From assembly GCA_016787045.1 (NCBI GenBank), contig JAEUVA010000010.1:100531-164530 (forward strand): DNA of 64,000 nt. Reading direction: 5' to 3'. The notes beneath the pieces are model-generated. The model worked only from the letters and a program-made list of their open reading frames with translations. It did not search any database and had not been told where the DNA came from. Source of the DNA: Chitinophagales bacterium (GTDB lineage: Bacteria > Bacteroidota > Bacteroidia > Chitinophagales > LD1). The translations under genes were made by a program, and so were the position numbers. Below, piece after piece: positions 10,962-29,693 of this stretch (position 1 is its first letter; every line of letters begins with the position of its first letter).

Positions 10962-11131
10962 GATGTTTGAATTGTAGTGTTGTGTAATTGTACATGTACT
11001 TGCGCTTTTTTTTTGATACAAAAGTGCTTGGTGAGCAGAGCTGAGTGTTATTGCAAATGCGCAAAAGATTTGCGGAAATGCGCAAAGTCAAACTTTCTGA
11101 AAAGATGAAATTCAATAACTATACGATTTTA

Positions 11132-11175
11132 AACTTGGCTATATCTATACTTTTTAACCCACTTATAGCCAAGTT
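11132..11175. repeat. 44-nt hairpin element 5 nt downstream of the ATPase stop codon (inverted copy of 12605-12648)
   Basis: 12-bp stem AACTTGGCTATA / TATAGCCAAGTT with a 20-nt loop TCTATACTTTTTAACCCACT. It matches the reverse complement of 12605-12648 at 39/44 positions. Confidence 0.85.
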
Positions 11176-11180
11176 GAAAG

Positions 11181-12596
11181 TTAGTCAAATAGATTATTCA
11201 TTGTAACACACTGCTGAATGTTGCCGGTGTGTGTATTCTCTTTTAGCCCGAAAGTGGTTACCAAAACAAGATGATATGTTTTGTTGATTGCCGATTCTGA
11301 TGCAAATGTGTTGACCTTTGTTTGTAACACTTTCTGATAACGCTTATCCACCACAAACTCACCTATAGAAAATTTCATTTCACATAAATTCACCACACCA
11401 TCTTTTCTGTCAATTACCAAATCAATTTGTGCGCCATCAATACTGCCGGAGCTTCGCCATGAAGAAACTTCGGTTTCAATGCCGCTGATTCCAAGTGCAT
11501 TTTTGATTTGCTCTACATGCCATAAGCACACTTGTTCAAAAGCATATCCGCTCCATGCGCGGTACTGTGGGGAGTTAAATTTCTTTAGCCAATAATTCTT
11601 TTCGTTTGTGGAATTCTTATCCATAAATTTCAAATGAAACAACGTGAACACATCGCATAACTGATATAAGCTATCGCGTTTTTTTTTGCCTATTTGCGCA
11701 TATCTTCTGACAAAGCCACTTTCTTCTAATTCTTCTAACAAGCGAGTTAAACCTCCACCATTTGCCAAACCGCTTATGTCGGCAATTTCCTGTCGTGTTA
11801 AACCCTTATCTTTTCTGGCTAAAGCAAAAACAATGGCTTCGTGCCTTTCGGCTTTGTAGAAAATAGATTGATACAACACCTGAAACTCATCCACCAACAA
11901 TCCATTTTTATCAAAGCATAAATGTTGTATGATTTGAGCTACACTCTTTCCTTTTGAAATTCCATTCCAGTAATAAGGAATGCCGCCTAATGTCATGTAT
12001 AGTTGCAGTAATTGATAGCGGTCAATTTTCAGCCCTTTGTATTTGGCATAATCTTCGCACTCAATTAGGGTGAACGGCTCCAACTTAATGCGCTGCGTAA
12101 CGCGGTTATGCAAGCCGCCTTTATTTTTAATCAGCTTATTGAGCATCCACGATGCAGCAGAACCGCAAACAATTAGCATCACATCTTTGCGTGCCGAAGC
12201 CCAACTGTTCCAAAAGTGCTCCAACTGTTGAACAAAACCGGAATGCAGGGTATCAAACCACGGTAATTCATCTATAAATATCACTTTCTTTTTCTGCTTA
12301 GATTTAGCAATAACTTTCTTCAGCAAGTCAAATGCTTCTGCCCAATTCCGTGCTTGTTTCCTTTTATAGCGTGGTTGTTGCGAAGCTAAAGAGCGATTAA
12401 ACGCCTCTAACTGGATTTGCAGATTGGCATTTGCCACACCGGTGAGTTGGAGCGTAAATTTCTTCTCAAATACCTGCCTTATCAGAAAGGTTTTCCCTAC
12501 TCTCCTTCTGCCATACACCGCCACAAACTCTGATTGGTTAGATGCAATTTTCTCTTCTAAAATTTTGATTTCCGCTTTTCTCCCGATGATTTCCAT
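11181..12596 (-). CDS. AAA-type ATPase with a wHTH and nuclease-like C-terminal region (archaeal-ATPase/DUF234-like architecture)
   Basis: Walker A YGRRRVGKTF, Walker B VIFIDELPW. C-terminal D..E.K-type motif (QIDLVIDRKDGVVNLCEMKF). Confidence 0.7.
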   Translation of the reverse strand: MEIIGRKAEIKILEEKIASNQSEFVAVYGRRRVGKTFLIRQVFEKKFTLQLTGVANANLQIQLEAFNRSLASQQPRYKRKQARNWAEAFDLLKKVIAKSKQKKKVIFIDELPWFDTLHSGFVQQLEHFWNSWASARKDVMLIVCGSAASWMLNKLIKNKGGLHNRVTQRIKLEPFTLIECEDYAKYKGLKIDRYQLLQLYMTLGGIPYYWNGISKGKSVAQIIQHLCFDKNGLLVDEFQVLYQSIFYKAERHEAIVFALARKDKGLTRQEIADISGLANGGGLTRLLEELEESGFVRRYAQIGKKKRDSLYQLCDVFTLFHLKFMDKNSTNEKNYWLKKFNSPQYRAWSGYAFEQVCLWHVEQIKNALGISGIETEVSSWRSSGSIDGAQIDLVIDRKDGVVNLCEMKFSIGEFVVDKRYQKVLQTKVNTFASESAINKTYHLVLVTTFGLKENTHTGNIQQCVTMNNLFD

Positions 12597-12604
12597 AAAA
12601 ATTA

Positions 12605-12648
12605 AACTTGGCTATAAGTGGGTTAAAAATACTACTTATAGCCAAGTT
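12605..12648. repeat. 44-nt hairpin element 8 nt upstream of the ATPase ATG (inverted copy of 11132-11175)
   Basis: Same 12-bp stem. The loop AGTGGGTTAAAAATACTACT contains the reverse complement of the TTTTTAACCCACT core. Confidence 0.85.
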
Positions 12649-20833: not shown

Positions 20834-22186
20834 ATGTTTACCTCATACCAATCTAAAATTAAAGAAGCGCTGCTGCTGGCCTTACCCATTATTGCCGGGC
20901 AGTTGGGGCAGGTGCTTATGGGCTTTTTTGATACTGTACAAATTGGCGGCCTGGGGCATACTTACATTGCCGCCACGGGCTTTGCCAATGGCATTTATTG
21001 GGTGATAATACTGCTTGGCATGGGCGTGCTGTTTGCCGTATCGCCATTGGTGAGTGAGGCCTTTGGTGCCGAAAAAGAATACCGCGCCATAGGTGTGCTG
21101 CGCTCGGGTTTGCTGGTATCGGTAGTGTTATCGGTAGTGTTTGTGATAGTTACAGAAATTGTGCGCGCCAACTTAGATGTTTTTAGGCACCCCGAAACAG
21201 ACACTCTGTTAGGTGCGCGGTATTTGCGCGTGATTAATTACTCTACACCGTTTGTTTTCTTTTTTATGTGTGGCAAGCAGTTTTTAGATGGCATGGGCAA
21301 AACCCTGCCCGGTATGTACATTACATTGGGTGGCTTGGCGCTCAATTGTTTTTTGAACTGGGTGCTTATCTACGGCCACTTAGGCGCTCCGGCATGGGGC
21401 GTAGAGGGGGCTGCATTGGCCAGTGGTATTTCAAAATTGGCGATGACGGTGGCTTTGTTTGTGTACATTTTTCAAAGCCGAAAGGTGAAGGATTTGCAAA
21501 CGGCCTACCACAGCCAGACGGAAAATACTACTGCCGGATATACTACGCATGTTTGGCCTATACTTACCATAGGGGTACCTGCGGGCTTGCAGTTTTTTTG
21601 GGAGGTAGCGGCTTTTAGTGCCGGGCAGGTCATGAGCGGGTGGATAAGCATAGAAGCCGAAGCCGCGCACATGATTGCTATTGGTATGGCCAGCATTACG
21701 TTTATGGTCATTACCGGGTTTTCGGCTGCCGGCACTATACTCACCGGTTTTGCTTATGGCGAAAAAAATGCGGAGGAGGTGAGAAAAACAGGTGTAGCTA
21801 TTCTGCTGATGACATTAGCTACTGAAGTTGTTTTTGCGCTTGTATTTGTACTGCTGCACCGCCAGTTACCACTACTTTATACCAATGAAGTAGTGGTGAT
21901 AGAAATGGCTGCAGCCATGCTTTTGTTGGCGGCACTTTTTCAACTCAGCGATGGGTTACAAGGTGCAGCTGCGGGCTTGCTGCGCGGCATACAAGATGTA
22001 AAAGTACCTGCATTAATAGCGCTCATTTCGTACTGGGGCATTATGGTACCTGCCTGTTATTATTTGGCATTTGAAGCCCGCATGGGGCTTGCCGGCATTT
22101 GGCTGGGGTTTGTAATTGGATTGACCATTGCTGCTGTTGGCATGTGGGCACGTTTTGGGTATATGGCCAAGCGGTTGAGGTTTTAA
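20834..22186 (+). CDS. MATE family efflux transporter
   Basis: ~450 aa with 12 predicted hydrophobic helices. N-terminal LLLALPIIAGQLGQVLMGFFDTVQIG and central LLRGIQDVKVPA are typical of the MATE/NorM family. Start moved to ATG 20834. Confidence 0.8.
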   Translation: MFTSYQSKIKEALLLALPIIAGQLGQVLMGFFDTVQIGGLGHTYIAATGFANGIYWVIILLGMGVLFAVSPLVSEAFGAEKEYRAIGVLRSGLLVSVVLSVVFVIVTEIVRANLDVFRHPETDTLLGARYLRVINYSTPFVFFFMCGKQFLDGMGKTLPGMYITLGGLALNCFLNWVLIYGHLGAPAWGVEGAALASGISKLAMTVALFVYIFQSRKVKDLQTAYHSQTENTTAGYTTHVWPILTIGVPAGLQFFWEVAAFSAGQVMSGWISIEAEAAHMIAIGMASITFMVITGFSAAGTILTGFAYGEKNAEEVRKTGVAILLMTLATEVVFALVFVLLHRQLPLLYTNEVVVIEMAAAMLLLAALFQLSDGLQGAAAGLLRGIQDVKVPALIALISYWGIMVPACYYLAFEARMGLAGIWLGFVIGLTIAAVGMWARFGYMAKRLRF

Positions 22187-22246
22187 AAACTACCAACACA
22201 AACTTATACAAACAATGAGATTCGCAGTAGGATTGCATCAAATCTT

Positions 22247-22281
22247 TTTACAAATTGGGAATTTAATTCCCAATTTGTAAA
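22247..22281. repeat. 35-bp perfect palindrome ending 8 nt upstream of the ATPase ATG
   Basis: TTTACAAATTGGGAATT-T-AATTCCCAATTTGTAAA. It shares its 16-nt arm core with the palindrome at 23432-23480. Confidence 0.9.
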
Positions 22282-22289
22282 TTTGCAAC

Positions 22290-23435
22290 ATGATACCAAG
22301 AGCCATAGAACCCGTACTTAAAAAAGCACTGCGGCAATTTCCGGTAGTGGTACTTACCGGCCCTCGCCAATCGGGCAAAACAACCATAGTAGAGAACCTG
22401 GCAGGGTATAAATATGTGAATCTAGAACACCCCGATTTGCGGGAATATGCTCGTGAAGATTCCCGCGGATTTTTAAGTGAATACGGTAAAGGCAAGTTAG
22501 TTATAGACGAGGCACAATATGTACCTCAACTTTTTTCGTACATACAGGCAGAAAGCGACAAGCACAAAAAGCCGGGTAAATTTGTTCTTACCGGCTCACA
22601 AAACTTTCTGCTCCTACAAAATATTTCGCAAAGCTTAGCAGGGCGCACCGCCATTTTAGAGCTGCTGCCTTTATCAGTGGCTGAATTACAAGCAGCTGGT
22701 AAACTTCCGGCCACCTACGAGCAATTCATTTTCAAAGGCGGGTATCCACGATTATACGGAACAAAGGCCAACAAACAACTGATGATGAGCGGCTACATTC
22801 GCACTTACGTGGAGCGCGATGTGCGCCAAATCGTAAATGTGCAGAACCTTTCGTTGTTCAATAAATTTTTAAAAAGCTGTGCAGCGCGTGTTGGGCAATT
22901 ATTAAATTACAGTTCTATAGGTAATGAACTGGGTATAGACCATAAAACCATCATGAAATGGATGTCTATACTCCAAAGCAGTTATATCATTTACTTGCTA
23001 CAACCCTATCACCGCAATTTTAATAAGCGATTAGTTAAAACACCAAAGTTATACTTTTATGATACCGGCCTTGCCACCGAACTGTTGGGTTTGCAAGATG
23101 TAAAACATCTGTACACTTATCCGCAGCGAGGGGAATTGTATGAAAATCTTGTACTGACGGAGTTAATCAAGCGTAGATTAAACAACGGAACTCAGCCAAA
23201 CCTGTGCTTTTGGAGAGACAGTACGGGCAATGAGGTAGATTTTATAGAAGAAATAGGTTCAAATACCGAGGCGTATGAAGTGAAATCTGCAAAAACCATA
23301 ACTCCCACCTTGTTCAGAGGGTTAGAAACGCTCAAAGCGTTAAGTGGATCAAATATAGGGCTAAATTTAGTGTATGGTGGAGTTGAAAATACTCAGCGAA
23401 ACGGTATTGATGTTTTAAACTGGAAAGGGCTGTAG
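22290..23435 (+). CDS. AAA ATPase with a DUF4143-like C-terminal (PD-(D/E)xK-like) domain
   Basis: Walker A LTGPRQSGKTT, Walker B LVIDEAQY. C-terminal GNEVDFIEE...AYEVKSAK (D..E.K). 381 aa, which is typical of the COG1373-type architecture as I recall it. Confidence 0.7.
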   Translation: MIPRAIEPVLKKALRQFPVVVLTGPRQSGKTTIVENLAGYKYVNLEHPDLREYAREDSRGFLSEYGKGKLVIDEAQYVPQLFSYIQAESDKHKKPGKFVLTGSQNFLLLQNISQSLAGRTAILELLPLSVAELQAAGKLPATYEQFIFKGGYPRLYGTKANKQLMMSGYIRTYVERDVRQIVNVQNLSLFNKFLKSCAARVGQLLNYSSIGNELGIDHKTIMKWMSILQSSYIIYLLQPYHRNFNKRLVKTPKLYFYDTGLATELLGLQDVKHLYTYPQRGELYENLVLTELIKRRLNNGTQPNLCFWRDSTGNEVDFIEEIGSNTEAYEVKSAKTITPTLFRGLETLKALSGSNIGLNLVYGGVENTQRNGIDVLNWKGL

Positions 23436-23480
23436 TGTTTTACAAATTGGGAATCAGATTCCCAATTTGTAAAACACTAC
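23432..23480. repeat. 49-bp perfect palindrome overlapping the ATPase stop codon
   Basis: GTAGTGTTTTACAAATTGGGAATC-A-GATTCCCAATTTGTAAAACACTAC. It lies between convergent genes, so it could also act as a bidirectional terminator. Confidence 0.9.
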
Positions 23481-23506
23481 GCTCTCTTAAATCTAAAGAG
23501 CAATGG

Positions 23507-24724
23507 TCATTGCTTTATTAACTTAAAATTATACCGTTTTTCATTACTTACAATAGTTACAAAATAAATGCCTGCTCCGGTTTCTGATACATCCAGCGCG
23601 GCATCGGTTTGGTTGGCACTTAGTGTGCGGCTGAGTACAATTTGACCGTTGATATTGGTAATGCTTACTATGCTTTCGGTACCACTATATGGCAAGCGTG
23701 TGTGGAGTTGCTCGGTAAATGGGTTGGGGGAGATAATGGGATGTTCCGTTGATATTGTTTGACTGTTTGACAGCATAGATGTTTCGTCCGTTTTTGCTGA
23801 GTTTATTTCAGTTGTAAACCCACACATCGCACCTATCTTGGCCTCAAAAACAGACCCTGCATCTGCCACCTCAAACCCCGGGTTAAGTTCTATAAACTCA
23901 CCTGCCATAAATGTTACAATTCCGTGATTTCCATTAGCCGTGCCCGGAATGAGTGGCTGTATTTTAGTAGTTCCGGTTGTTTTAATTGATTTATCAGCAT
24001 ACCAGTTTTGCTCCAATTGCACTATAATTTTTGTGGTCATTAAAACCAAACCATTAAACGCCTTTACAATGTATAATCCTGAAGATAAGCCATTCAACGA
24101 TACAACGCGCGGTTCATGTGGCATTAGGTCATTTACATGCGTTTGCTTTGCTATTTTACCCTGTAAATCCAATACTACTAATTGTAGTTGCTGAACGAGT
24201 TCTGATATTTCAACATTGATAGTATTGCCCGAATGCAAAAGTGTTGGGTAAATCTTAATTGTAAGGTTGCTTGGTAAATTTTCATCGTCAAATTTTTGCT
24301 CATAAAATAAATCATCAGTTTTAGCCGCTATTGTTGTTCGAGTTATAGCACACGGATTTATTTCAGCTACAAAATCAGTTCCTGAATAGAACCCGTTATT
24401 TAACTCAATATAAGTGCCAGCGTGATAACCAACAGTAATACCATCATTTATACTTTGAGTAGAGACTATTGAGCCTGTTACCGAATAGCCATTTGAGAAA
24501 TTCAGAACCCCAAACAAATTCTCACTTGGCACACAATAATTCATTCTCACAGTAGCTGTGTTCGTTTCACTTCCATCTCTCAAATAACTAAGCAAGTTGG
24601 TGTAACTTGGAGTTAAGCAAACAAAGTAACTGGGTCCGTTGCCGCAGGTGGTCAGCCCCCTAACCCCCAAAGGGGGAATTTCTACGCAGTTGCGCTTTTC
24701 GGTGTTACTCCGGTAGTGGCACAT
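23507..24724 (-). CDS. T9SS-domain protein carrying two sorting-domain modules in tandem and no signal peptide (possible fused or decayed gene)
   Basis: An internal CTD-like block (IYPTLLHSGNT...GLYIVKAFNGLVLMTTKIIVQ) is followed by a second module that ends in a terminal CTD (ISPNPFTEQL...GIYFVTIVSNEKRYNFKLIKQ). Neither M1 nor M61 is followed by a signal peptide. Confidence 0.5.
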   Translation of the reverse strand: MCHYRSNTEKRNCVEIPPLGVRGLTTCGNGPSYFVCLTPSYTNLLSYLRDGSETNTATVRMNYCVPSENLFGVLNFSNGYSVTGSIVSTQSINDGITVGYHAGTYIELNNGFYSGTDFVAEINPCAITRTTIAAKTDDLFYEQKFDDENLPSNLTIKIYPTLLHSGNTINVEISELVQQLQLVVLDLQGKIAKQTHVNDLMPHEPRVVSLNGLSSGLYIVKAFNGLVLMTTKIIVQLEQNWYADKSIKTTGTTKIQPLIPGTANGNHGIVTFMAGEFIELNPGFEVADAGSVFEAKIGAMCGFTTEINSAKTDETSMLSNSQTISTEHPIISPNPFTEQLHTRLPYSGTESIVSITNINGQIVLSRTLSANQTDAALDVSETGAGIYFVTIVSNEKRYNFKLIKQ

Positions 24725-25181
24725 ACTTATACTTTACTTCTACTTGGTAATCGGGCGGGATGTTTTCTACAGCGCAGAACATGCTTCTTGTGCCAGGAAA
24801 CTGTAGTTGCGCAGTATCGCGTTGAATCATACTTACATCATAAATTAGCTTCTTTAGACAAGTATCTTTAGATAAACTTGCTTGAAAGGTATCTCCGTAG
24901 AAATAAGACATCTTCCCAATCATTATATACACAAAATCGGTTTCATCAATTGGGAAGGCAACCGGTGGCGAAAAGGTGCAGTCGGTTATTGAATCAATTT
25001 GAGATTTTCTTCGCATGATGTATTCATACTCGTATAGGTTGCCACCGCAAGTAAATGTATAGTACTTTTCTATAAAAGGATCAACATAGTAGGGAGCGGA
25101 GGCGCAATGCGCCTTGTCTTTACAACAGCTACCTAATAATGTAGCGACAGCTACAATTACTCCAATCGCTATTGGCTTCAT
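24705..25181 (-). CDS. hypothetical lipoprotein
   Basis: Lipobox MKPIAIGVIVAVATLLGSC followed by CKDKAHC. Its ATG overlaps the upstream TGA stop (ATGA). Confidence 0.6.
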   Translation of the reverse strand: MKPIAIGVIVAVATLLGSCCKDKAHCASAPYYVDPFIEKYYTFTCGGNLYEYEYIMRRKSQIDSITDCTFSPPVAFPIDETDFVYIMIGKMSYFYGDTFQASLSKDTCLKKLIYDVSMIQRDTAQLQFPGTRSMFCAVENIPPDYQVEVKYKYVPLPE

Positions 25182-25402
25182 TGTATAACAATTTTCTGTG
25201 TAAATGATGTTGTGGAAGTTTGCACCTTAACTATATACATGCCCTGAGCTAAATTTGCGGTGGGAACTTGTAACGGTGAGCCAAACTGAAGTTCTGCCGA
25301 CTCGGTTGAAATCACATTAACACCGTTTAAATCATAAAATTTTACTTGTTGGTGACGCATCGGCAGAGCCGAAGCTATAACACCAACAAGGGCGAAATAC
25401 AT
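25178..25402 (-). CDS. orphan T9SS C-terminal sorting domain (74 aa, likely a remnant of a cargo gene)
   Basis: VKFYDLNGVNVIS...LAQGMYIVKVQTSTTSFTQKIVIQ is a complete CTD-like block with no cargo domain and no signal peptide. Confidence 0.45.
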   Translation of the reverse strand: MYFALVGVIASALPMRHQQVKFYDLNGVNVISTESAELQFGSPLQVPTANLAQGMYIVKVQTSTTSFTQKIVIQ

Positions 25403-25512
25403 AGGGTGTTCTTTTGCTCTTCGGTGGGGTCTCTCGTGCCGAAAAACAACTCATGATGTGGCGGTTAGAACACCCACCAACAGGAAAATTACTACATATA
25501 TACCATAAAAAA

Positions 25513-25809
25513 CTACTTCAACTTTGGCATACATGTTATGCCCGGTTTTTGCTCCTGCTGCTGTTTGTCTTTTTCATTGCACACCACTTGGTGATAAGTG
25601 ATGTAGTTTGTAGGTTTTGAAATTAAATCATAGCGCATGCTGTCTATAAAAAAATTGTATGCAGCGTAGTTCGGAAACTGATCCGAGCAAATGAGTTCTC
25701 CCGTAGAAATTCTTTTCACACAATCATTCACACAGTCAAAGCACTTTTTACAGCCGGACCAAAACACCAGCAGCACACTACTTACTACAGTAATAGTTAT
25801 TCTTCTCAT
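25513..25809 (-). CDS. small Cys-rich lipoprotein (paralog of 25778-26065)
   Basis: MRRITITVVSSVLLVFWSGC lipobox, then KKCFDCVNDC...LICSD. The start could also be 25833 or 25842. The 5' end overlaps the upstream paralog. Confidence 0.55.
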   Translation of the reverse strand: MRRITITVVSSVLLVFWSGCKKCFDCVNDCVKRISTGELICSDQFPNYAAYNFFIDSMRYDLISKPTNYITYHQVVCNEKDKQQQEQKPGITCMPKLK

Positions 25810-26065
25810 ACAAATATTGAATATTTTTGACATTGTTATCACACAGCTTCACATTTTCGGTAGGAGCTACCAAGGTGCAGCCGCTATTTAGTAGGAATTG
25901 ACGAGAACCCTGCCAGTTTGCTTGCCCGGAGTAATCAGTGCTGCATATCAGGGTAGTAGCAGAGCCACATTGGTAACACTCATTTTTACAGGTAACGCAT
26001 TTAGTACAGGACTGGCTAAACAAGATTAACAAACAGGCAAAAATCAATAGTGTGGGAGATTTCAT
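25778..26065 (-). CDS. small Cys-rich lipoprotein
   Basis: MKSPTLLIFACLLILFSQSC lipobox, then TKCVTCKNECYQC...LICSTD. Its ATG overlaps the upstream TGA stop (ATGA). Confidence 0.6.
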   Translation of the reverse strand: MKSPTLLIFACLLILFSQSCTKCVTCKNECYQCGSATTLICSTDYSGQANWQGSRQFLLNSGCTLVAPTENVKLCDNNVKNIQYLYEKNNYYCSK

Positions 26066-27705
26066 TGCTTTAATATTTTAAATGATAGGTAATTTGTACA
26101 AGTAGTGAACAAGAAAACATAGTAAATGCCGCCCGGCAGTTCTTCAAGTGATATATCTCCGAATGTTTTACCGGCTGACACTAACGCTGAGTTGGCATTG
26201 TATATTTTATAATCTAAGCCGGATTTTATCTCTTCTGTAACCTCTCTTGATGAACCTAAAACTTCAATTTTTCCATCCGTTGGATTAGGCGCGACCAGCA
26301 CTTTGCACGGTTCTATACTGTTAGTAATCATTTCCTGCCAATCTGTTTTTGCATTTGGGCCGCATCCGCTTAAGTATTCATAAGTAACTGTAAATGTTTT
26401 GACTTGCATGCCCATACAATTATAAATTGCTAAATCTACAGTTGCTATATGTTGTGATTGTGTAAAATATGCAAACGGATAACCGTTCCAATATTGTGTG
26501 ATCGGACTATTGATAGATTGTATGTCTTCAAAAATAATAGCCCCTGAACTATTTTTTATCATGACATGGTACCAACCTGCACCATAGGAATAAAAAGCCA
26601 TGTTGGTGCCGAAGCAATTAGTGGGTGTAGGGGGGTAATATGGAGCACTACAGTTTAAAAATGCGCATTGATTGGCATAATCAATATTTAAACCAAAATC
26701 ATAAGCCGGATCGTCCACTGCCCCACACGGTGCAATTTCTGCTACAAAAACACCGCCCGGCTCTACAACAAACCCCGGTTGTATATCAATAAAACCCCCA
26801 GCCCTAAACTTTATTTTTCTGTTAGATTTAACTATGACAGGTCCTGTGCTCATGTTTGGGGCACCCACATCGCTGCCGGCTCTAATAAATAGCCGTCTTT
26901 GGGTATTGTTTGGTAGTTTGTCCGAAATATCTTGGTATAGCATATAGTCCCCACAACAATCTCTATAAAGTTCTACATCATCTAATTGCACGCCTATTGA
27001 TGCGCAGGGGATTTCAACATCAGATTGATCATAAACCACCAAATCTATTGCAATCCAATCGTAACCGAATTCAAAAATTTTAATAGGGTCTATGGTCACT
27101 TGCTGCCAGCTATCGGCATTTGCAGTTAAAATAGGCGCTAAATAGGTTATGGGTTTTGTGGCGTGTATCTTTCTATAGTTAGCAGCACAGCTAACAGCAT
27201 CAATGTCGCTATTCTCTGAATGATAGCTAACTTCTGTTTTAGATAATCTTACACGCAGGTAATACTTATAACTACTGTTGTATTCGTACAACCCAAAACT
27301 GCTTGACCCCGGTGCTGAAAATAACTTTACATTGGCTTTAAAGTAATATAATCCTTCATTCAAAGCGTTTTGTAAATCTTGTTGTATAAGCTCCTCTGGC
27401 GTAAAGTATACTAAAAAATTACCTGTTGTGGGTAATACGCTGTTCATAAAGGGGTCAAAATTTCTGCAGCCAGAAAGCGTTGATAGCCAATCCGGAGAGT
27501 GTATAGCGCTGGTTCCGCTTGAGGTAGACGAGGAAACGGTTTGAGTTCTTGATGTCCAATCTTTTACCTTTTCAAACTGAGCTAAGCCTGTAGGGCAATC
27601 ACCGGTTATGTTAGGTGTCTCAAAGGAGTGATTACGTATTAAGTTTTGGGATTGAGCCGTAGCCCAAATCGCAAACAACAGGGATATTGTAAGAGGAGTT
27701 TTCAT
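26062..27705 (-). CDS. secreted T9SS cargo protein of unknown function
   Basis: Signal peptide MKTPLTISLLFAIWATAQSQ. Motif GGFIDIQPGFVVEPGGVFVAEIAPCG. C-terminal CTD VAPNPTDGKIEV...GGIYYVFLFTTCTNYLSFKILKQ. Confidence 0.7.
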   Translation of the reverse strand: MKTPLTISLLFAIWATAQSQNLIRNHSFETPNITGDCPTGLAQFEKVKDWTSRTQTVSSSTSSGTSAIHSPDWLSTLSGCRNFDPFMNSVLPTTGNFLVYFTPEELIQQDLQNALNEGLYYFKANVKLFSAPGSSSFGLYEYNSSYKYYLRVRLSKTEVSYHSENSDIDAVSCAANYRKIHATKPITYLAPILTANADSWQQVTIDPIKIFEFGYDWIAIDLVVYDQSDVEIPCASIGVQLDDVELYRDCCGDYMLYQDISDKLPNNTQRRLFIRAGSDVGAPNMSTGPVIVKSNRKIKFRAGGFIDIQPGFVVEPGGVFVAEIAPCGAVDDPAYDFGLNIDYANQCAFLNCSAPYYPPTPTNCFGTNMAFYSYGAGWYHVMIKNSSGAIIFEDIQSINSPITQYWNGYPFAYFTQSQHIATVDLAIYNCMGMQVKTFTVTYEYLSGCGPNAKTDWQEMITNSIEPCKVLVAPNPTDGKIEVLGSSREVTEEIKSGLDYKIYNANSALVSAGKTFGDISLEELPGGIYYVFLFTTCTNYLSFKILKQ

Positions 27706-27707
27706 AT

Positions 27708-29273
27708 CTACTTACCTTTTTTTAGCTGCTTCTCTAAATTAATCAGATGTAATGTCAACTCCTCAATTTTAGCTAAGAGCATAGCGTTCATTTTAGCTAA
27801 ATCTATTCCTTGCTCTGTTACTTCTTGAGCGCTGGGTATTCCGGGCAGATGTTTGTTCTTTTTTACAAACTTTTCTACATCGCTCAATGGCATTAGCTTG
27901 TAATCTTTATCAAATACATAATCACTCCAATCTCCCGTAGTTTTTATAGCACACTTAAACCGCTCTGCCAGTATTCCTTTTTCTACATATAGCGAGTAGC
28001 AAGAGTTAGTGGTACAGGGTGTTGATACATTGCCTATCTGTACAGTTCCTGTAATTTCGGCATTCCCTGCAACCTTTAGTTTATCGTTCGCATTACCGTT
28101 GTGTCCTACATCTACCAACAGGTTCCCTTCCTCTTCGGTAATGATGTGCCTCGCATTCCCTGTATTGCCAACCCAACGTAGTTGAGCGTTCCAGTCAGGA
28201 GTTGCCTTGTTTTCAACTAAGTCCACATACACATCATCAGTACCATTTCTCCGCACTCCTAAACTGCCACTCACCACTAATTTATCATTCCCCCCTCCAT
28301 TGGCCACCCCCGGGTCTATTACAAAATCGCCATTGATTTCGGTAATGAGGTGGCGGGGTTGGCCGGTATTGGCCGGGTTCATAAACCGGATGGCACTGGT
28401 ACCGGTGGTGGGGCGGGTAATATCTAATGTAGTAGAGCCATCGGTATCATACAAAACCACGGTAGAGTTGGTGTTTGGGGCAATACCTATTCCAATGTTT
28501 CCATTGCTGCTAATGCGAAAATATGGGTTATCAGACGGGGTCATGGTTGGTGTTTGAGTTGGCGCAGGTTGGTCTATGTTCATCAACACCGAAAAATTTT
28601 GCGGCAATGCCCGCATGTCAAATTGTGCAAAGGTTTGCATGTCTATATCCATTGGGTAGCCGGTGGCAATGGCTCCATTGCCAAATATGCCAAAGTTAAT
28701 GCGCTCATCGGTACTGTTCACCACACCAAAGGCCGGTACAGATTTGGGGATGGTGGAATTGTTGGTGTTATCAAGAATATCATTGCGGCTGTTAATCAAC
28801 ATACATCCCCCGGGTTCGTTAGCATCTCCCACATTAGTAAATATCATTAGTATTCGCTCATCTTGGTCTTCTACACCATACACCAGATTCCCCAAAATGT
28901 CGCCACTATACAAGTCGTTATTGTACCCCTTGGTAGAAATGTGCAGGTCAATAGCCGGAGATATACCTATGCCCACTTGCCCTTTATGGTTAACTATAAA
29001 ATCGGAAACAGTGGTAGGCCCGGCTTCGGTGTGTGCTGCCTCAATGTAGTTTCCCGGAGTTTGGCAATCAAAATCCTGTTTAAGCAATAGGTTAGGTCCA
29101 CTACAGCCACCAAGCACATGCAACTTGCCCGATGGATATATAGTGCCAATGCCCACATTCGTACCATCGTCAAAAGCACTGCTGCCGGTTTGCCCGGTTT
29201 GGTAAAAGCCCTGTGTGTAAGCGGTGCTCATACATAGTGTTGCGAGCAGAAAGGTAAGTAATTTTTGTTTCAT
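27708..29273 (-). CDS. secreted tail-fibre-like protein with a conserved helical C-terminal domain
   Basis: Signal peptide MKQKLLTFLLATLCMSTAYTQ (start moved to ATG 29273). Repeated GIG motifs (NVGIGTIYPSGKLHV, QVGIGISPAIDLHI, NIGIGIAPNTNSTV). C-terminus DWSDYVFDKDYKLMPLSDVEKFVKKNKHLPGIPSAQEV...LLAKIEELTLHLINLEKQLKK. Confidence 0.65.
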   Translation of the reverse strand: MKQKLLTFLLATLCMSTAYTQGFYQTGQTGSSAFDDGTNVGIGTIYPSGKLHVLGGCSGPNLLLKQDFDCQTPGNYIEAAHTEAGPTTVSDFIVNHKGQVGIGISPAIDLHISTKGYNNDLYSGDILGNLVYGVEDQDERILMIFTNVGDANEPGGCMLINSRNDILDNTNNSTIPKSVPAFGVVNSTDERINFGIFGNGAIATGYPMDIDMQTFAQFDMRALPQNFSVLMNIDQPAPTQTPTMTPSDNPYFRISSNGNIGIGIAPNTNSTVVLYDTDGSTTLDITRPTTGTSAIRFMNPANTGQPRHLITEINGDFVIDPGVANGGGNDKLVVSGSLGVRRNGTDDVYVDLVENKATPDWNAQLRWVGNTGNARHIITEEEGNLLVDVGHNGNANDKLKVAGNAEITGTVQIGNVSTPCTTNSCYSLYVEKGILAERFKCAIKTTGDWSDYVFDKDYKLMPLSDVEKFVKKNKHLPGIPSAQEVTEQGIDLAKMNAMLLAKIEELTLHLINLEKQLKKGK

Positions 29274-29376
29274 AAGTAGAGGATATTTAAGGTGAGGAAA
29301 AAACAAGCTACTACCCACCGCACAGCATTGGTGATAAGTACCCATAAAAACAACCGGTAAATTACAGAGAAACTGC

Positions 29377-29390
29377 GGGGGGGGGGGGGG
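29377..29390. repeat. G14 homopolymer (C14 on the operon strand) ~100 nt upstream of the surface-protein operon start
   Basis: Fourteen consecutive G in an otherwise mixed, AT-leaning intergenic region. Candidate slipped-strand phase-variation tract. Confidence 0.9.
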
Positions 29391-29646
29391 CAGAGTTTAC
29401 ACCACCGAAATTTGCCAAACAAGTAAGGGGAGTAAAAAGCAGCATGGTGGTGTGTTTGTAGCTGCAAAGCAAAGCAGGTATTTTGTATATGTCAACAAAA
29501 ACGCATGGTTTTATTTCTGCACTTGTAGTGCAAAATTAAATTTGGATGGTATGTGTTTTTTGTTTTATTAGTGTGCGAGCAAACATGTAAGTAGCTCTGA
29601 GCTAACCTGATGTTGAATTGCGTCAAATAAACTCTTACTATCGGGA

Positions 29647-29693
29647 GCATGTTGGCGCAGTTTGTGTACATGGCCAAGCGGTTAAAGTTTTAA
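29647..29693 (+). pseudogene. remnant of a MATE transporter 3' end
   Basis: It translates as SMLAQFVYMAKRLKF*, compared with GMWARFGYMAKRLRF* at the end of the intact MATE gene. 39/47 nt are identical. An in-frame TAA lies 7 codons upstream, so no gene body remains. Confidence 0.7.

What the first reader, a model, noticed from the sequence alone, without database searches (positions are those of the whole stretch)
11132..12648. ATPase / nuclease-like gene enclosed by 44-nt terminal inverted hairpin repeats
A 44-nt element (12-bp stem AACTTGGCTATA/TATAGCCAAGTT, 20-nt loop) lies 5 nt after the stop codon (11132-11175). Its reverse complement lies exactly 8 nt upstream of the ATG (12605-12648). 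The two copies match at 39/44 positions, including the loop core TTTTTAACCCACT. Independent terminators would not share loop sequence, so the two copies look like the ends of a single-gene cassette. The enclosed protein has Walker A/B motifs and a C-terminal D..E.K block (IDLVID...CEMK), i.e. an NTPase fused to a possible PD-(D/E)xK nuclease. The gene looks AT-rich relative to its neighbours. The unrelated ATPase at 22290 has the same geometry, which suggests a shared but undescribed logic such as autoregulatory binding sites, mobility ends or RNA processing signals.
Basis: partly seen in the sequence, partly recalled or inferred. Interest (0 to 1): 0.72.

Follow-up and report, generated by a model that had tools for sequence, protein, structure and literature searches.

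The report
Paired palindromic sites bracketing an ATPase-nuclease gene
A candidate anti-phage gene (an ATPase fused to a nuclease) is bracketed by two copies of a strongly conserved palindrome that is most likely the protein's own DNA-binding site for self-regulation, and a palindrome of this kind sits upstream of most genes of this very common but uncharacterised family.

Summary
A 471-aa gene (11181-12596, minus strand) is bracketed by 44-nt hairpin palindromes 5 nt after its stop codon and 8 nt before its ATG. They match at 39/44 positions as inverted copies.

The gene is PADLOC candidate defence system PDC-S27 (ORC/Cdc6-like AAA+ ATPase, winged helix, PD-(D/E)xK nuclease). The gene at 22290 is PDC-S01, a distant homologue with the same architecture, not an unrelated ATPase.

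- The palindrome is not a scattered REP or a terminator. Its stems occur in only one of about 185,000 species genomes, again flanking a homologue.
- 82% of 80 homologues carry a lineage-specific upstream palindrome, against 16% of control genes. It usually lies just before the promoter -7 box, often with extra solitary half-sites.
- A matched downstream copy occurs in about 15-20% of loci, usually inside a longer direct repeat.
- In four orthologous lineages all 54 stem positions of both hairpins are invariant, while the loop flips precisely. The "terminal inverted repeat" geometry is therefore unstable.

Best reading: cognate operator sites, duplicated to the 3' end in this lineage. A mobile-cassette role is not excluded, because discrete single-gene modules occur in different contexts elsewhere. 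No published description of these palindromes turned up.

The parts
12605..12648 (.). Upstream palindrome of gene A. Arms AACTTGGCTATAAGT / ACTTATAGCCAAGTT, 14-nt loop, ending 8 nt before the ATG and about 20 nt after the AraC stop codon. The loop holds a -7-like box (TATTTTTA) in the sense direction.
   Evidence: The arms are invariant in four orthologous lineages. The loop is precisely inverted in L002 relative to L134.
11181..12596 (-). Gene A, 471 aa. It has an ORC/Cdc6/STAND-like AAA+ ATPase (Pfam ATPase_2), a winged helix (about residues 250-305) and a C-terminal PD-(D/E)xK nuclease (E354, D392, E406, K408). It is PADLOC candidate defence system PDC-S27.
   Evidence: Pfam. PADLOC PDLC04984, E 1e-201. 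Invariant catalytic residues. AlphaFold model and Foldseek hits to 2qen, ORC/Cdc6, STAND and Avs3.
11132..11175 (.). Downstream palindrome of gene A. Same 12-bp arms, 20-nt loop, 5 nt after the stop codon. The loop is inverted relative to the upstream copy in this genome.
   Evidence: 38 of its 44 columns are invariant in four lineages, while the next 40 nt outward keep only 5/40.
22247..22281 (.). Upstream palindrome of gene B (TTTACAAATTGGGAATT-T-AATTCCCAATTTGTAAA), ending 8 nt before the ATG. An exact TAAATTTG -7 box spans its right edge.
   Evidence: The same palindrome type occurs upstream of 51-52%-identical homologues L113 and L115.
22290..23435 (+). Gene B, 381 aa. AAA_14 ATPase plus DUF4143 (PD-(D/E)xK). 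It is PADLOC candidate PDC-S01 and a distant homologue of gene A.
   Evidence: No orthologue above 54% identity was found.
23432..23480 (.). Downstream palindrome of gene B. A 24-bp perfect stem containing the same core, overlapping the TAG stop codon.
   Evidence: A homologous arrangement occurs in L115.

Best explanation
The palindromes are the cognate double-stranded DNA-binding sites (operators) of the protein they bracket. That protein is an ORC/Cdc6-like AAA+ ATPase with a winged helix and a PD-(D/E)xK nuclease domain (PADLOC candidate defence gene PDC-S27; gene B is the homologous PDC-S01).

The proposed mechanism has three steps.
1. The protein binds the two half-sites of the upstream palindrome, which lies on or directly next to its own promoter and start codon. 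This keeps expression of a potentially toxic nuclease low (autorepression).
2. In this lineage, and in about 15-20% of family members, the site-containing segment was duplicated to the 3' end of the gene.
3. The second site is itself under selection. It most plausibly acts as an auxiliary operator, either by looping between the two sites or by insulating the gene from transcription entering from outside.

Loop flipping and the very long perfect stems are by-products of hairpin-templated strand switching at any long inverted repeat.

Shown here:
- The family-wide association between gene and upstream palindrome.
- Its position relative to promoter signals.
- The solitary extra half-sites.
- Purifying selection on both copies.
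- The fold of the protein.

Inferred, not shown:
- That the encoded protein, rather than another factor, binds the sites.
- That binding represses.
- That the 3' copy works by looping or insulation.
For: 1. The upstream palindrome is a family feature. 82.5% of 80 PDC-S27 homologues have a stem of at least 10 bp within 160 nt upstream, against 16% of 222 control genes in the same loci and 6% of shuffles. With a loop of at least 9 nt the figures are 69% against 8.6%.
2. Position. In 32 of 65 loci an exact Bacteroidota -7 box (TAnnTTTG) lies between the palindrome and the ATG. It is most often within about 40 nt of the palindrome edge and typically 15-30 nt before the ATG. The palindrome therefore mostly lies upstream of the -7 box and is not transcribed there. 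In loci with Shine-Dalgarno motifs it abuts the ribosome-binding site.
3. By my count from the listing, 22 of 66 loci carry a third solitary half-site or a second palindrome nearer the ATG. My estimate of the chance expectation is about 0.002 per locus. This points to recognition of the half-site sequence on duplex DNA rather than of a hairpin shape.
4. Palindrome sequences are lineage-specific and track protein relatedness down to about 60-70% identity. Within each locus the arm 12-mers occur essentially only at the gene's own flanks.
5. The element is not dispersed. Exact stems occur in 1 of 185,579 species genomes (2 copies flanking a homologue), 0 viral contigs and only at the four arm positions of the two hairpins in the window.
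6. Both copies are constrained. All 54 arm positions are invariant in four lineages whose genes are 80-83% identical. P is about 2e-8 at the whole-gene rate and about 1e-20 at the third-position rate. Only 5/40 positions just outside the downstream hairpin are conserved.
7. The protein has the fold of DNA-binding initiators. Best structural matches are archaeal ATPase 2qen, ORC/Cdc6 (including Orc1/Cdc6 bound to origin DNA, 2qby) and STAND/Avs. There are weak MarR/IclR winged-helix hits at residues 255-301.
8. The homologous PDC-S01 family shows the same logic. A palindrome lies 0-17 nt before the ATG in the window gene, L113, L115, L121-L125 and L097, with a conserved core TTACA...GGAAT.
Against: - No binding, transcript or reporter data exist.
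- Pairs that share a palindrome despite about 50% protein identity (window clade versus L004; L015 versus L037) are not more similar in the winged-helix segment than elsewhere. The specificity determinant is therefore unidentified, and a host factor or exchange of sites is possible.
- Arms of 15-28 bp and loop lengths from 2 to 28 nt are unusual for a simple dimeric repressor.
- The operator model does not by itself explain three things. Matched downstream copies usually lie inside 50-130-nt direct repeats, which sometimes include the gene's own 3' end or host sequence. These genes occur as solitary insertions inside operons. A 1.47-kb PDC-S01 module has identical ends in three Agrobacterium plasmid contexts.
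- In the window clade no consensus -7 box lies between palindrome and ATG, so the promoter layout there is uncertain.
Confidence: 0.5

Rival explanations
1. The palindromes are recombination or end-recognition sites of a single-gene mobile cassette. The AAA+/PD-(D/E)xK protein recognises and cuts or pairs them, moving the gene together with its site or sites between locations. Promoter overlap would then resemble an IS transposase promoter lying inside its terminal repeat.
For: - 14 of about 72 evaluable PDC-S27 loci have flanking repeats far above background (score over 40 against 15-29). Most are direct and 50-130 nt long.
- In L004 a 116-nt repeat includes the last 51 nt of the gene plus the hairpin, next to two tRNA genes.
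- In L030 a lower-GC gene unit sits in a 69%-GC host, flanked by a 112-128-nt duplication of the 3' end of the upstream host ORF.
- PDC-S01 genes occur as lone insertions: antisense inside araD|araA-araB (L123) and between DUF2490 and fixS (L113).
- A 1.47-kb PDC-S01 module is 95% identical in three different Agrobacterium plasmid contexts, with identical ends.
- L002 has 2.1 kb of extra genes inserted exactly at the outer edge of the downstream hairpin.
- PDC genes were originally defined as genes embedded inside other systems.
- The window-type arms are shared with a 50%-identical Muribaculaceae homologue whose closer relatives have other palindromes.
Against: - About 80% of homologues have no matched downstream copy.
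- Gene A has stayed beside the same AraC gene with both hairpins through about 18-20% nucleotide divergence.
- The two copies are 85-94% identical rather than identical.
- Their relative orientation is not conserved.
- No short target-site duplication, multi-copy identical elements, empty site or circle junction was found.
- The Agrobacterium module ends are not the palindrome type seen here, and no flanking repeat was seen there.
- Gene B lies inside a larger 7.46-kb island.
Confidence: 0.2
2. The elements act as RNA. A 5'-UTR hairpin directly before the start codon would control translation or stability, and the same hairpin at the 3' end would act as a terminator or stabiliser.
For: - In the window clade the hairpin is 7-8 nt from the ATG, and a -7-like box (TAAATTTC / TAGATTTT) lies just upstream of it. 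The hairpin may therefore be transcribed.
- The 3' copy sits 5 nt after the stop codon, the usual terminator position.
- The stems are stable.
- In the PDC-S01 family the palindrome abuts the ATG.
Against: - Loop orientation flips between close orthologues and between copies, which would change the RNA loop to its complement.
- In half of the loci the -7 box lies downstream of the palindrome, so it is not in the mRNA.
- Solitary half-sites cannot form hairpins.
- The stems are AT-rich, the loops are 14-20 nt, and orthologues have no U-tract.
- No Rfam family matches.
Confidence: 0.1
3. The upstream hairpin is a miniature invertible promoter. The loop would carry the -7 box, and its inversion between the 15-bp arms would switch the gene on or off.
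For: - L134 has an exact TATATTTG in the loop, 26 nt before the ATG, the family-typical distance.
- The window and L001 have TATTTTTA at the same place.
- L002, whose gene is 92% identical to that of L134 and whose flanks are identical, has exactly the reverse-complemented 14-nt loop.
- L068 has an exact TATTTTTG in its loop, and its downstream copy is flipped.
Against: - Among 15 loci whose palindrome lies within 20 nt of the ATG, loop -7-like boxes are as frequent antisense (4) as sense (4).
- No recombinase is adjacent.
- 14 nt is far below the size of known invertible segments.
- Only fixed differences between lineages were seen, not mixed orientations within one sample.
Confidence: 0.07
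4. The element is a generic REP/BIME-type dispersed repeat or an ordinary intrinsic terminator that happens to occur twice. Alternatively, the 3' copy is a functionless remnant of a lost tandem paralogue.
For: Tandem remnants do exist in the family. L076 has a second partial hit, and L004 has a 3'-end fragment plus hairpin upstream of the intact gene.
Against: - No dispersed copies were found.
- Terminator features are absent.
- The 3' copy is as strongly conserved as the 5' copy, while the adjacent sequence is randomised.
Confidence: 0.04

Closest known systems
PADLOC phage-defence candidates PDC-S27 and PDC-S01 (COG1672 ATPase_2/DUF234-type and COG1373 AAA_14/DUF4143)
   Same: Gene A matches the PDC-S27 model full length (E 1e-201) and gene B the PDC-S01 model (E 2e-105). 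Both are an ATPase fused to a PD-(D/E)xK domain, as described in PMC12988326 and PMC3424549.
   Different: Those catalogues describe only the proteins. None of the papers found mentions conserved flanking or upstream palindromes. Defence activity itself is untested.
Archaeal Orc1/Cdc6 initiators with origin recognition boxes next to their own gene (own knowledge; structure 2qby)
   Same: An AAA+ module plus winged helix of the same fold class. Inverted, repeated binding boxes cluster beside the gene that encodes the binder.
   Different: There is no evidence of an origin here. The protein carries a nuclease domain. The families have many copies per genome and a patchy distribution. Sites can bracket the gene.
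Autoregulated defence or toxin genes with palindromic operators (e.g. BrxR/CapW-type regulators), and repressors using auxiliary downstream operators with DNA looping (lac O2, gal OI) (own knowledge)
   Same: A dyad-symmetric site overlaps the promoter of the regulated gene, and a second site lies downstream of it.
   Different: The regulator and the effector would be one polypeptide. The arms are much longer (12-28 bp) with 10-20-nt spacers. The second site lies beyond the stop codon.
RAYT genes flanked by REP/REPIN palindromes, and IS elements with terminal inverted repeats overlapping the transposase promoter (own knowledge)
   Same: A single gene is bracketed by two copies of a palindromic element, with a nuclease-type enzyme inside.
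   Different: The element is not dispersed in the genome. The enzyme is not an HUH or DDE transposase. The relative orientation of the copies is unstable. No target duplication or multiple copies were found.
Minute inversions of hairpin loops between short inverted repeats in chloroplast non-coding DNA (PMC12371153 and related papers)
   Same: The loop is precisely reverse-complemented between otherwise identical arms (L002 versus L134; the two copies in the window and in L068).
   Different: Here it occurs in bacterial chromosomes, at a site that is otherwise under strong purifying selection.

Membership tests
PADLOC PDC-S27 / PDC-S01 candidate defence genes | Full-length match to the family HMM | tested here: met
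   PDLC04984, E 1e-201, residues 2-470 of gene A. PDLC04790, E 2e-105, residues 1-361 of gene B.
PADLOC PDC-S27 / PDC-S01 candidate defence genes | Architecture of P-loop ATPase plus C-terminal PD-(D/E)xK with catalytic residues | tested here: met
   Pfam ATPase_2, and AAA_14 plus DUF4143. D392, E406 and K408 are invariant. The two families align collinearly.
PADLOC PDC-S27 / PDC-S01 candidate defence genes | Protection against phage | not testable with these tools
   The literature states that these candidates are untested.
REP/BIME dispersed palindromes (RAYT-associated) | Many copies scattered in intergenic regions of the genome | tested here: not met
   The stem occurs only at the four arm positions of the two hairpins in the 64-kb window. 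One of 185,579 species genomes has it, with 2 copies flanking a homologue. Arm 12-mers are confined to the gene flanks in 66 loci. The complete source genome could not be scanned.
REP/BIME dispersed palindromes (RAYT-associated) | Enclosed gene is a Y1 HUH transposase | tested here: not met
   The enclosed gene is AAA+ / winged helix / PD-(D/E)xK.
Insertion sequence / transposon with terminal inverted repeats | Two ends in fixed inverted orientation | tested here: not met
   The copies are inverted in the window but direct in L002, L004, L005, L026 and L054. The difference lies only in the flippable loop.
Insertion sequence / transposon with terminal inverted repeats | Target-site duplication and multiple (near-)identical copies, or empty sites | tested here: inconclusive
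   No short duplication is present at the window hairpins. No empty site could be obtained for gene A. Relatives lack gene B, but only as part of a 7.46-kb island. Long direct repeats occur at other loci.
Integron gene cassette (attC) | A 3' attC site with R''/L''-L'/R' cores, a promoterless ORF, an array next to intI | tested here: not met
   The conserved element is upstream and associated with a promoter. No arrays were seen. No integrase was found among the few neighbouring ORFs scanned.
Intrinsic transcription terminator | GC-rich stem, short loop, 3' U-tract | tested here: not met
   The 12-bp core stem is 42% GC (33% over the 15-bp extended stem). The loops are 14-20 nt. No U-tract is conserved in orthologues.
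Autoregulatory operator | Dyad-symmetric site specific to the gene, overlapping its promoter or start, conserved | tested here: met
Autoregulatory operator | Bound by the gene's own product, with an effect on expression | not testable with these tools
   Only the fold analogy to ORC/Cdc6 is available. A co-variation test with the winged-helix segment was not informative.
Invertible promoter (inverton) | Promoter between inverted repeats, found in both orientations, with a recombinase | tested here: inconclusive
   Both loop orientations exist among lineages, and L134 has an exact -7 box in the loop. There is no orientation bias across the family, no recombinase, and no within-sample heterogeneity data.

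The most novel reading that the evidence does not exclude
AAA+/PD-(D/E)xK genes of the PDC-S01 and PDC-S27 families may be autonomous single-gene mobile elements rather than, or as well as, defence genes. They are among the commonest 'defence candidates' in prokaryotes. On this reading the conserved palindromes are the sites the encoded ATPase-nuclease recognises in order to excise or insert the cassette. The long flanking direct repeats, the insertions inside operons and the identical-ended modules in different plasmid contexts would be its footprints. A related variant is that the flipping loop acts as a 14-nt promoter switch.
Probability: 0.15. Interest if true: 0.85.

Novelty: new variant of a known kind. 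Interest (0 to 1): 0.5.

Why it matters
[quoted passage not shown] PDC-S01 ranks as the fourth most common system overall (PMC12988326). Neither has a demonstrated function or a known mode of regulation.

A conserved, lineage-specific palindromic site next to most of these genes gives three things:
- a concrete DNA ligand to test with the purified protein;
- a likely regulatory mechanism, namely self-repression of a nuclease by an ORC-like DNA-binding module;
- a marker for asking whether these solitary genes are moved as cassettes.

If the sites turn out to be recombination ends, a large share of what is annotated as defence would instead be a new class of selfish element.

Tried and rejected
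- REP/dispersed repeat: rejected. Scans of the window, the genome collection and the viral collection found no dispersed copies.
- Intrinsic terminator and known RNA families: rejected on anatomy and on Rfam.
- Fixed terminal inverted repeats: rejected because of loop flipping.
- Pseudogene remnant of a tandem paralogue downstream of gene A: nothing detectable by tblastn.
- Empty-site test for gene B through MatE orthologues. Relatives join the MatE stop codon to window position 29649, so only a 7.46-kb island polymorphism was recovered, not a single-gene one.
- Co-variation of palindrome type with the winged-helix segment: no signal.
- '-7 box in the loop' as a general rule: not supported, 4 sense against 4 antisense in 15 loci.
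- Sequence search of the PDB with single proteins and with profiles: no informative hits. The fold search was needed instead.
- Plasmid search for gene A relatives: only 8 records, too few for presence/absence analysis.
- One protein (P0071) was not on record for a context look-up.
Full report
**1. The observation**

Gene A is a 471-aa ORF on the minus strand (11181-12596). It is bracketed by two 44-nt hairpin palindromes.
- Hairpin 11132-11175 lies 5 nt after the stop codon. It has a 12-bp stem and a 20-nt loop.
- Hairpin 12605-12648 lies 8 nt before the ATG. It has the same stem, extended to 15 bp, and a 14-nt loop.

Read as inverted copies, the two elements match at 39/44 positions. The 12-nt stem occurs only at these four arm positions in the window, where 0.47 matches are expected by chance.

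A second gene, gene B (22290-23435), has the same layout. A 35-nt near-perfect palindrome ends 8 nt before its ATG, and a 49-nt perfect palindrome with the same core overlaps its stop codon. These four are the longest hairpins in the 64 kb. All fold far better than shuffled sequence.

The claimed AT-richness of gene A is marginal. It is 39.6% GC, the 8th percentile of same-size windows, and the neighbouring AraC gene is similar.

**2. The genes**

Gene A matches Pfam ATPase_2, with weak MarR/IclR winged-helix hits at residues 255-301. Its C-terminal E354...D392...E406-x-K408 motif is invariant in homologues.

An AlphaFold model of moderate confidence (pLDDT 71.5) was searched against the PDB. 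It is closest to the Pyrococcus Walker-type ATPase 2qen, to ORC/Cdc6 proteins including archaeal Orc1/Cdc6 on origin DNA, and to STAND/Avs NTPases.

Gene B is AAA_14 plus DUF4143. In PADLOC, gene A is candidate system PDC-S27 (E 1e-201) and gene B is PDC-S01 (E 2e-105). Both are described as ATPases fused to PD-(D/E)xK domains. They are very abundant in bacteria and archaea and have not been tested experimentally.

The two families are not unrelated. Their profiles align collinearly across Walker A, Walker B, the winged helix and the nuclease motif (91.5% probability, E 9e-7).

**3. Not a dispersed repeat or a terminator**

I scanned one genome for each of 185,579 species for the pattern AACTTGGCTATA-N10-30-TATAGCCAAGTT. 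A single contig matched, from a Muribaculaceae MAG. It has exactly two copies about 1.5 kb apart, flanking a 50%-identical homologue.

Viral contigs hold no copy of either palindrome. Across 66 homologous loci the arm 12-mers occur essentially only at the gene's own flanks.

The stems are AT-rich, the loops are long, orthologues have no U-tract, and Rfam finds nothing.

**4. A family-wide upstream palindrome**

Eighty metagenomic loci with 43-63%-identical homologues were fetched and analysed by script.

| Upstream 160 nt | Stem of at least 10 bp | Stem of at least 10 bp and loop of at least 9 nt |
|---|---|---|
| PDC-S27 homologues (n = 80) | 82.5% | 69% |
| Other genes in the same loci (n = 222) | 16% | 8.6% |
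| Shuffled sequence | 6% | 3.7% |

The sequences differ by lineage and follow protein relatedness down to about 60-70% identity.

In 32 of 65 loci an exact Bacteroidota -7 box (TAnnTTTG) lies between the palindrome and the ATG. It is most often within about 40 nt of the palindrome edge and typically 15-30 nt before the ATG. In those loci the palindrome lies upstream of the -7 box, mostly over or near the -33/spacer region, and is not transcribed. In loci with Shine-Dalgarno motifs it abuts the ribosome-binding site.

By my count from the listing, 22 of 66 loci also carry a solitary third half-site or a second palindrome nearer the ATG. This is the anatomy of an operator array recognised on duplex DNA.

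The PDC-S01 family behaves alike. A palindrome lies 0-17 nt before the ATG in the window gene, L113, L115, four Cytophagales plasmid genes, an Allochromatium plasmid gene and L097. The core TTACA...GGAAT recurs at about 50% protein identity.

**5. The downstream copy**

A matched copy after the stop codon is the exception. Fourteen of about 72 evaluable PDC-S27 loci exceed the background of the up-versus-down comparison. In the small PDC-S01 sample only the window and L115 have one.

In most such loci the flanking repeats are direct and longer than the hairpin, at 50-130 nt.
- L026 has two tandem hairpins on each side.
- L054 has a hairpin plus extra half-sites.
- L004 has the last 51 nt of the gene plus the hairpin, beside two tRNA genes.
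- L030 has a 112-128-nt duplication of the 3' end of the upstream host ORF around a lower-GC gene unit.

**6. Orthologues: conservation and loop flipping**

Besides a 99.8%-identical strain (L132/L133), three further lineages were recovered: L001, L002/L003 and L134. Their genes are 80-83% identical to the window gene. All keep the gene beside the same AraC regulator and keep both hairpins.

All 54 arm positions are invariant, although only 72% of gene columns and 43% of third codon positions are. The 40 nt just outside the downstream hairpin keep only 5/40 positions. Both copies are therefore under purifying selection. The 3' copy is not a decaying remnant.

The loop, however, flips. L002 and L134 have genes 92% identical and identical flanks. 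They differ by an exact reverse-complement of the 14-nt loop, GGGTCAAATATACC versus GGTATATTTGACCC. The same flip separates the two copies in the window and in L068, and in L068 the surrounding 104 nt are direct repeats.

So "inverted" versus "direct" is a property of the loop only, and it is not stable. Precise loop inversions between short inverted repeats are a known mutational behaviour of hairpins, for example in chloroplast DNA.

Synteny breaks right after the downstream hairpin. L002 carries 2.1 kb of extra genes inserted at its outer edge, and L001 has an extra adh_short gene about 85 nt further on.

**7. Interpretation**

The best-supported reading is that the palindromes are the cognate DNA sites of the encoded ORC/Cdc6-like ATPase-nuclease. 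The upstream site would serve autoregulation. In this lineage a duplicated, selected second site at the 3' end would act as an auxiliary operator, through looping or insulation. The very long perfect stems are plausibly self-perfected by template switching. One example is the 24-bp stem that incorporates gene B's stop codon.

Binding by the gene's own product is inferred, not shown. Two pairs share a palindrome despite about 50% protein identity: the window clade with L004, and L015 with L037 from one metagenome. Neither pair shows excess similarity in the winged-helix segment.

**8. The mobility alternative**

Several observations keep a cassette reading alive.
- The long flanking direct repeats.
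- Solitary PDC-S01 genes inside operons: antisense within araD|araA-araB on an Emticicia plasmid, and between DUF2490 and fixS.
- A 1.47-kb PDC-S01 module that is 95% identical in three different Agrobacterium plasmid contexts. It has identical ends, CCCATCAAGG...AACCACCAT, and in pAtA6 it lies at a junction of segments that are not adjacent elsewhere.
- PDC genes were defined in the first place as genes embedded within other systems.

Against this reading:
- Most genes have only one palindrome.
- Gene A has been stable in place.
- No short target duplication, identical multi-copy elements, empty site or circle junction was seen.
- Gene B lies at the proximal end of a 7.46-kb strain-specific island, not in a cassette of its own.

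I give this reading about 0.2 as the function of the window palindromes and 0.15 for the stronger claim that the genes are autonomous mobile elements.

**9. Other rivals**

An RNA-level role is disfavoured by loop flipping, by the promoter position in half of the loci and by the solitary half-sites.

A mini-inverton, with the -7 box in the loop, is suggested by the exact TATATTTG in L134 lying 26 nt before the ATG, and by its inversion in L002. Loop -7-like boxes show no orientation bias across the family, however.

**10. Novelty and verdict**

The proteins belong to catalogued but uncharacterised candidate defence families. I found no publication describing the palindromes.

I class the feature as a new variant of a known kind: a self-operator architecture with sites bracketing the gene. 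It is of moderate interest because it gives a testable handle on two of the most abundant uncharacterised "defence" families, and because there is a minority chance that it marks a new type of single-gene mobile element.

Noticed in passing
window 22187-29648 (repeats 22142-22186 and 29649-29693): This is a 7.46-kb strain-specific island holding gene B and several T9SS-tailed or unknown ORFs. It is inserted exactly after the MatE stop codon and bounded by a ~45-nt direct repeat of the MatE 3' end; the distal copy is about 84% identical. Relatives with 92%-identical MatE (L109/L110) join MatE directly to 29649. A strain with 98% identical DNA (L107/L108) has 663 nt of entirely different sequence at the same point. 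No Pfam family was found in most of the island ORFs scanned, and no integrase among them.
   Followed up: partly
window 29377-29390: A run of 14 G lies about 30 nt upstream of the start of the 545-aa minus-strand ORF 27708-29345, near the distal end of the island. It is a candidate slipped-strand phase-variation tract.
   Followed up: no
L107 6354-7016 (contig SRR30909894_29449): In the near-identical strain, the DNA after MatE consists of about 16 imperfect repeats, each ending in ...GCGCGA(A/G)..., with a period of roughly 27 nt. Their nature is unknown.
   Followed up: no
L002 versus L134 upstream hairpin; window 11144-11163 versus 12617-12636; L068 up/down copies: The hairpin loop is precisely reverse-complemented between otherwise identical arms and flanks. 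This is seen between close orthologues and between the two copies at one locus.
   Followed up: yes
L126 2275-3744; L127 and L128 2501-3974 (Agrobacterium plasmids pAt1 Kin001, pAtA6, pAtCG920): A 1.47-kb PDC-S01 module (196 nt upstream, the gene, and 20 nt downstream) is 95% identical in three different genomic contexts. Its boundaries are identical: CCCATCAAGG...AACCACCAT. In pAtA6 it lies at a junction of segments that are not adjacent in other plasmids, and it abuts a truncated dehydrogenase gene.
   Followed up: partly
L123 2495-3661 (Emticicia oligotrophica plasmid pEMTOL02): A PDC-S01 gene sits antisense between araD and araA-araB of an arabinose operon. The gaps are 58 nt and 39 nt, and an upstream palindrome abuts its ATG.
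   Followed up: partly
L030 313-440 and 2061-2187: A PDC-S27 gene unit (about 46-59% GC) lies in a 69%-GC host contig. It is flanked by a 112-128-nt direct repeat that is the 3' end of the upstream host ORF. This resembles the MatE-end duplication in the window.
   Followed up: partly
L004 2579-2672 and 2728-2821: Two tandem tRNA genes lie directly beside the upstream copy of the unit '3'-end fragment plus hairpin' of the Muribaculaceae homologue.
   Followed up: no
L085-L095 (contig starts 217-225 nt upstream of the PDC-S01 gene): Many independent assemblies of the same organism break at the same point about 220 nt upstream of the gene. This suggests a repeat or a structure that breaks assembly there.
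   Followed up: no
L122 3634-3690 (Runella plasmid pSP2_2): A 21-bp-stem palindrome (TTGTTTTAACCATAAGTGCAAAAC/TTGCACTTATGGTTAAAACAA) overlaps the stop codon of a PDC-S01 gene. It is unrelated to that gene's upstream palindrome, but it shares CCATAAGTG with PDC-S27-type palindromes such as the one in L047.
   Followed up: no
window 11045-11090: The motif AAATGCGCAAA is repeated twice, about 50-90 nt beyond the downstream hairpin. A related TTTGCGCATTTC is conserved at the equivalent place in L001 and L134.
   Followed up: no
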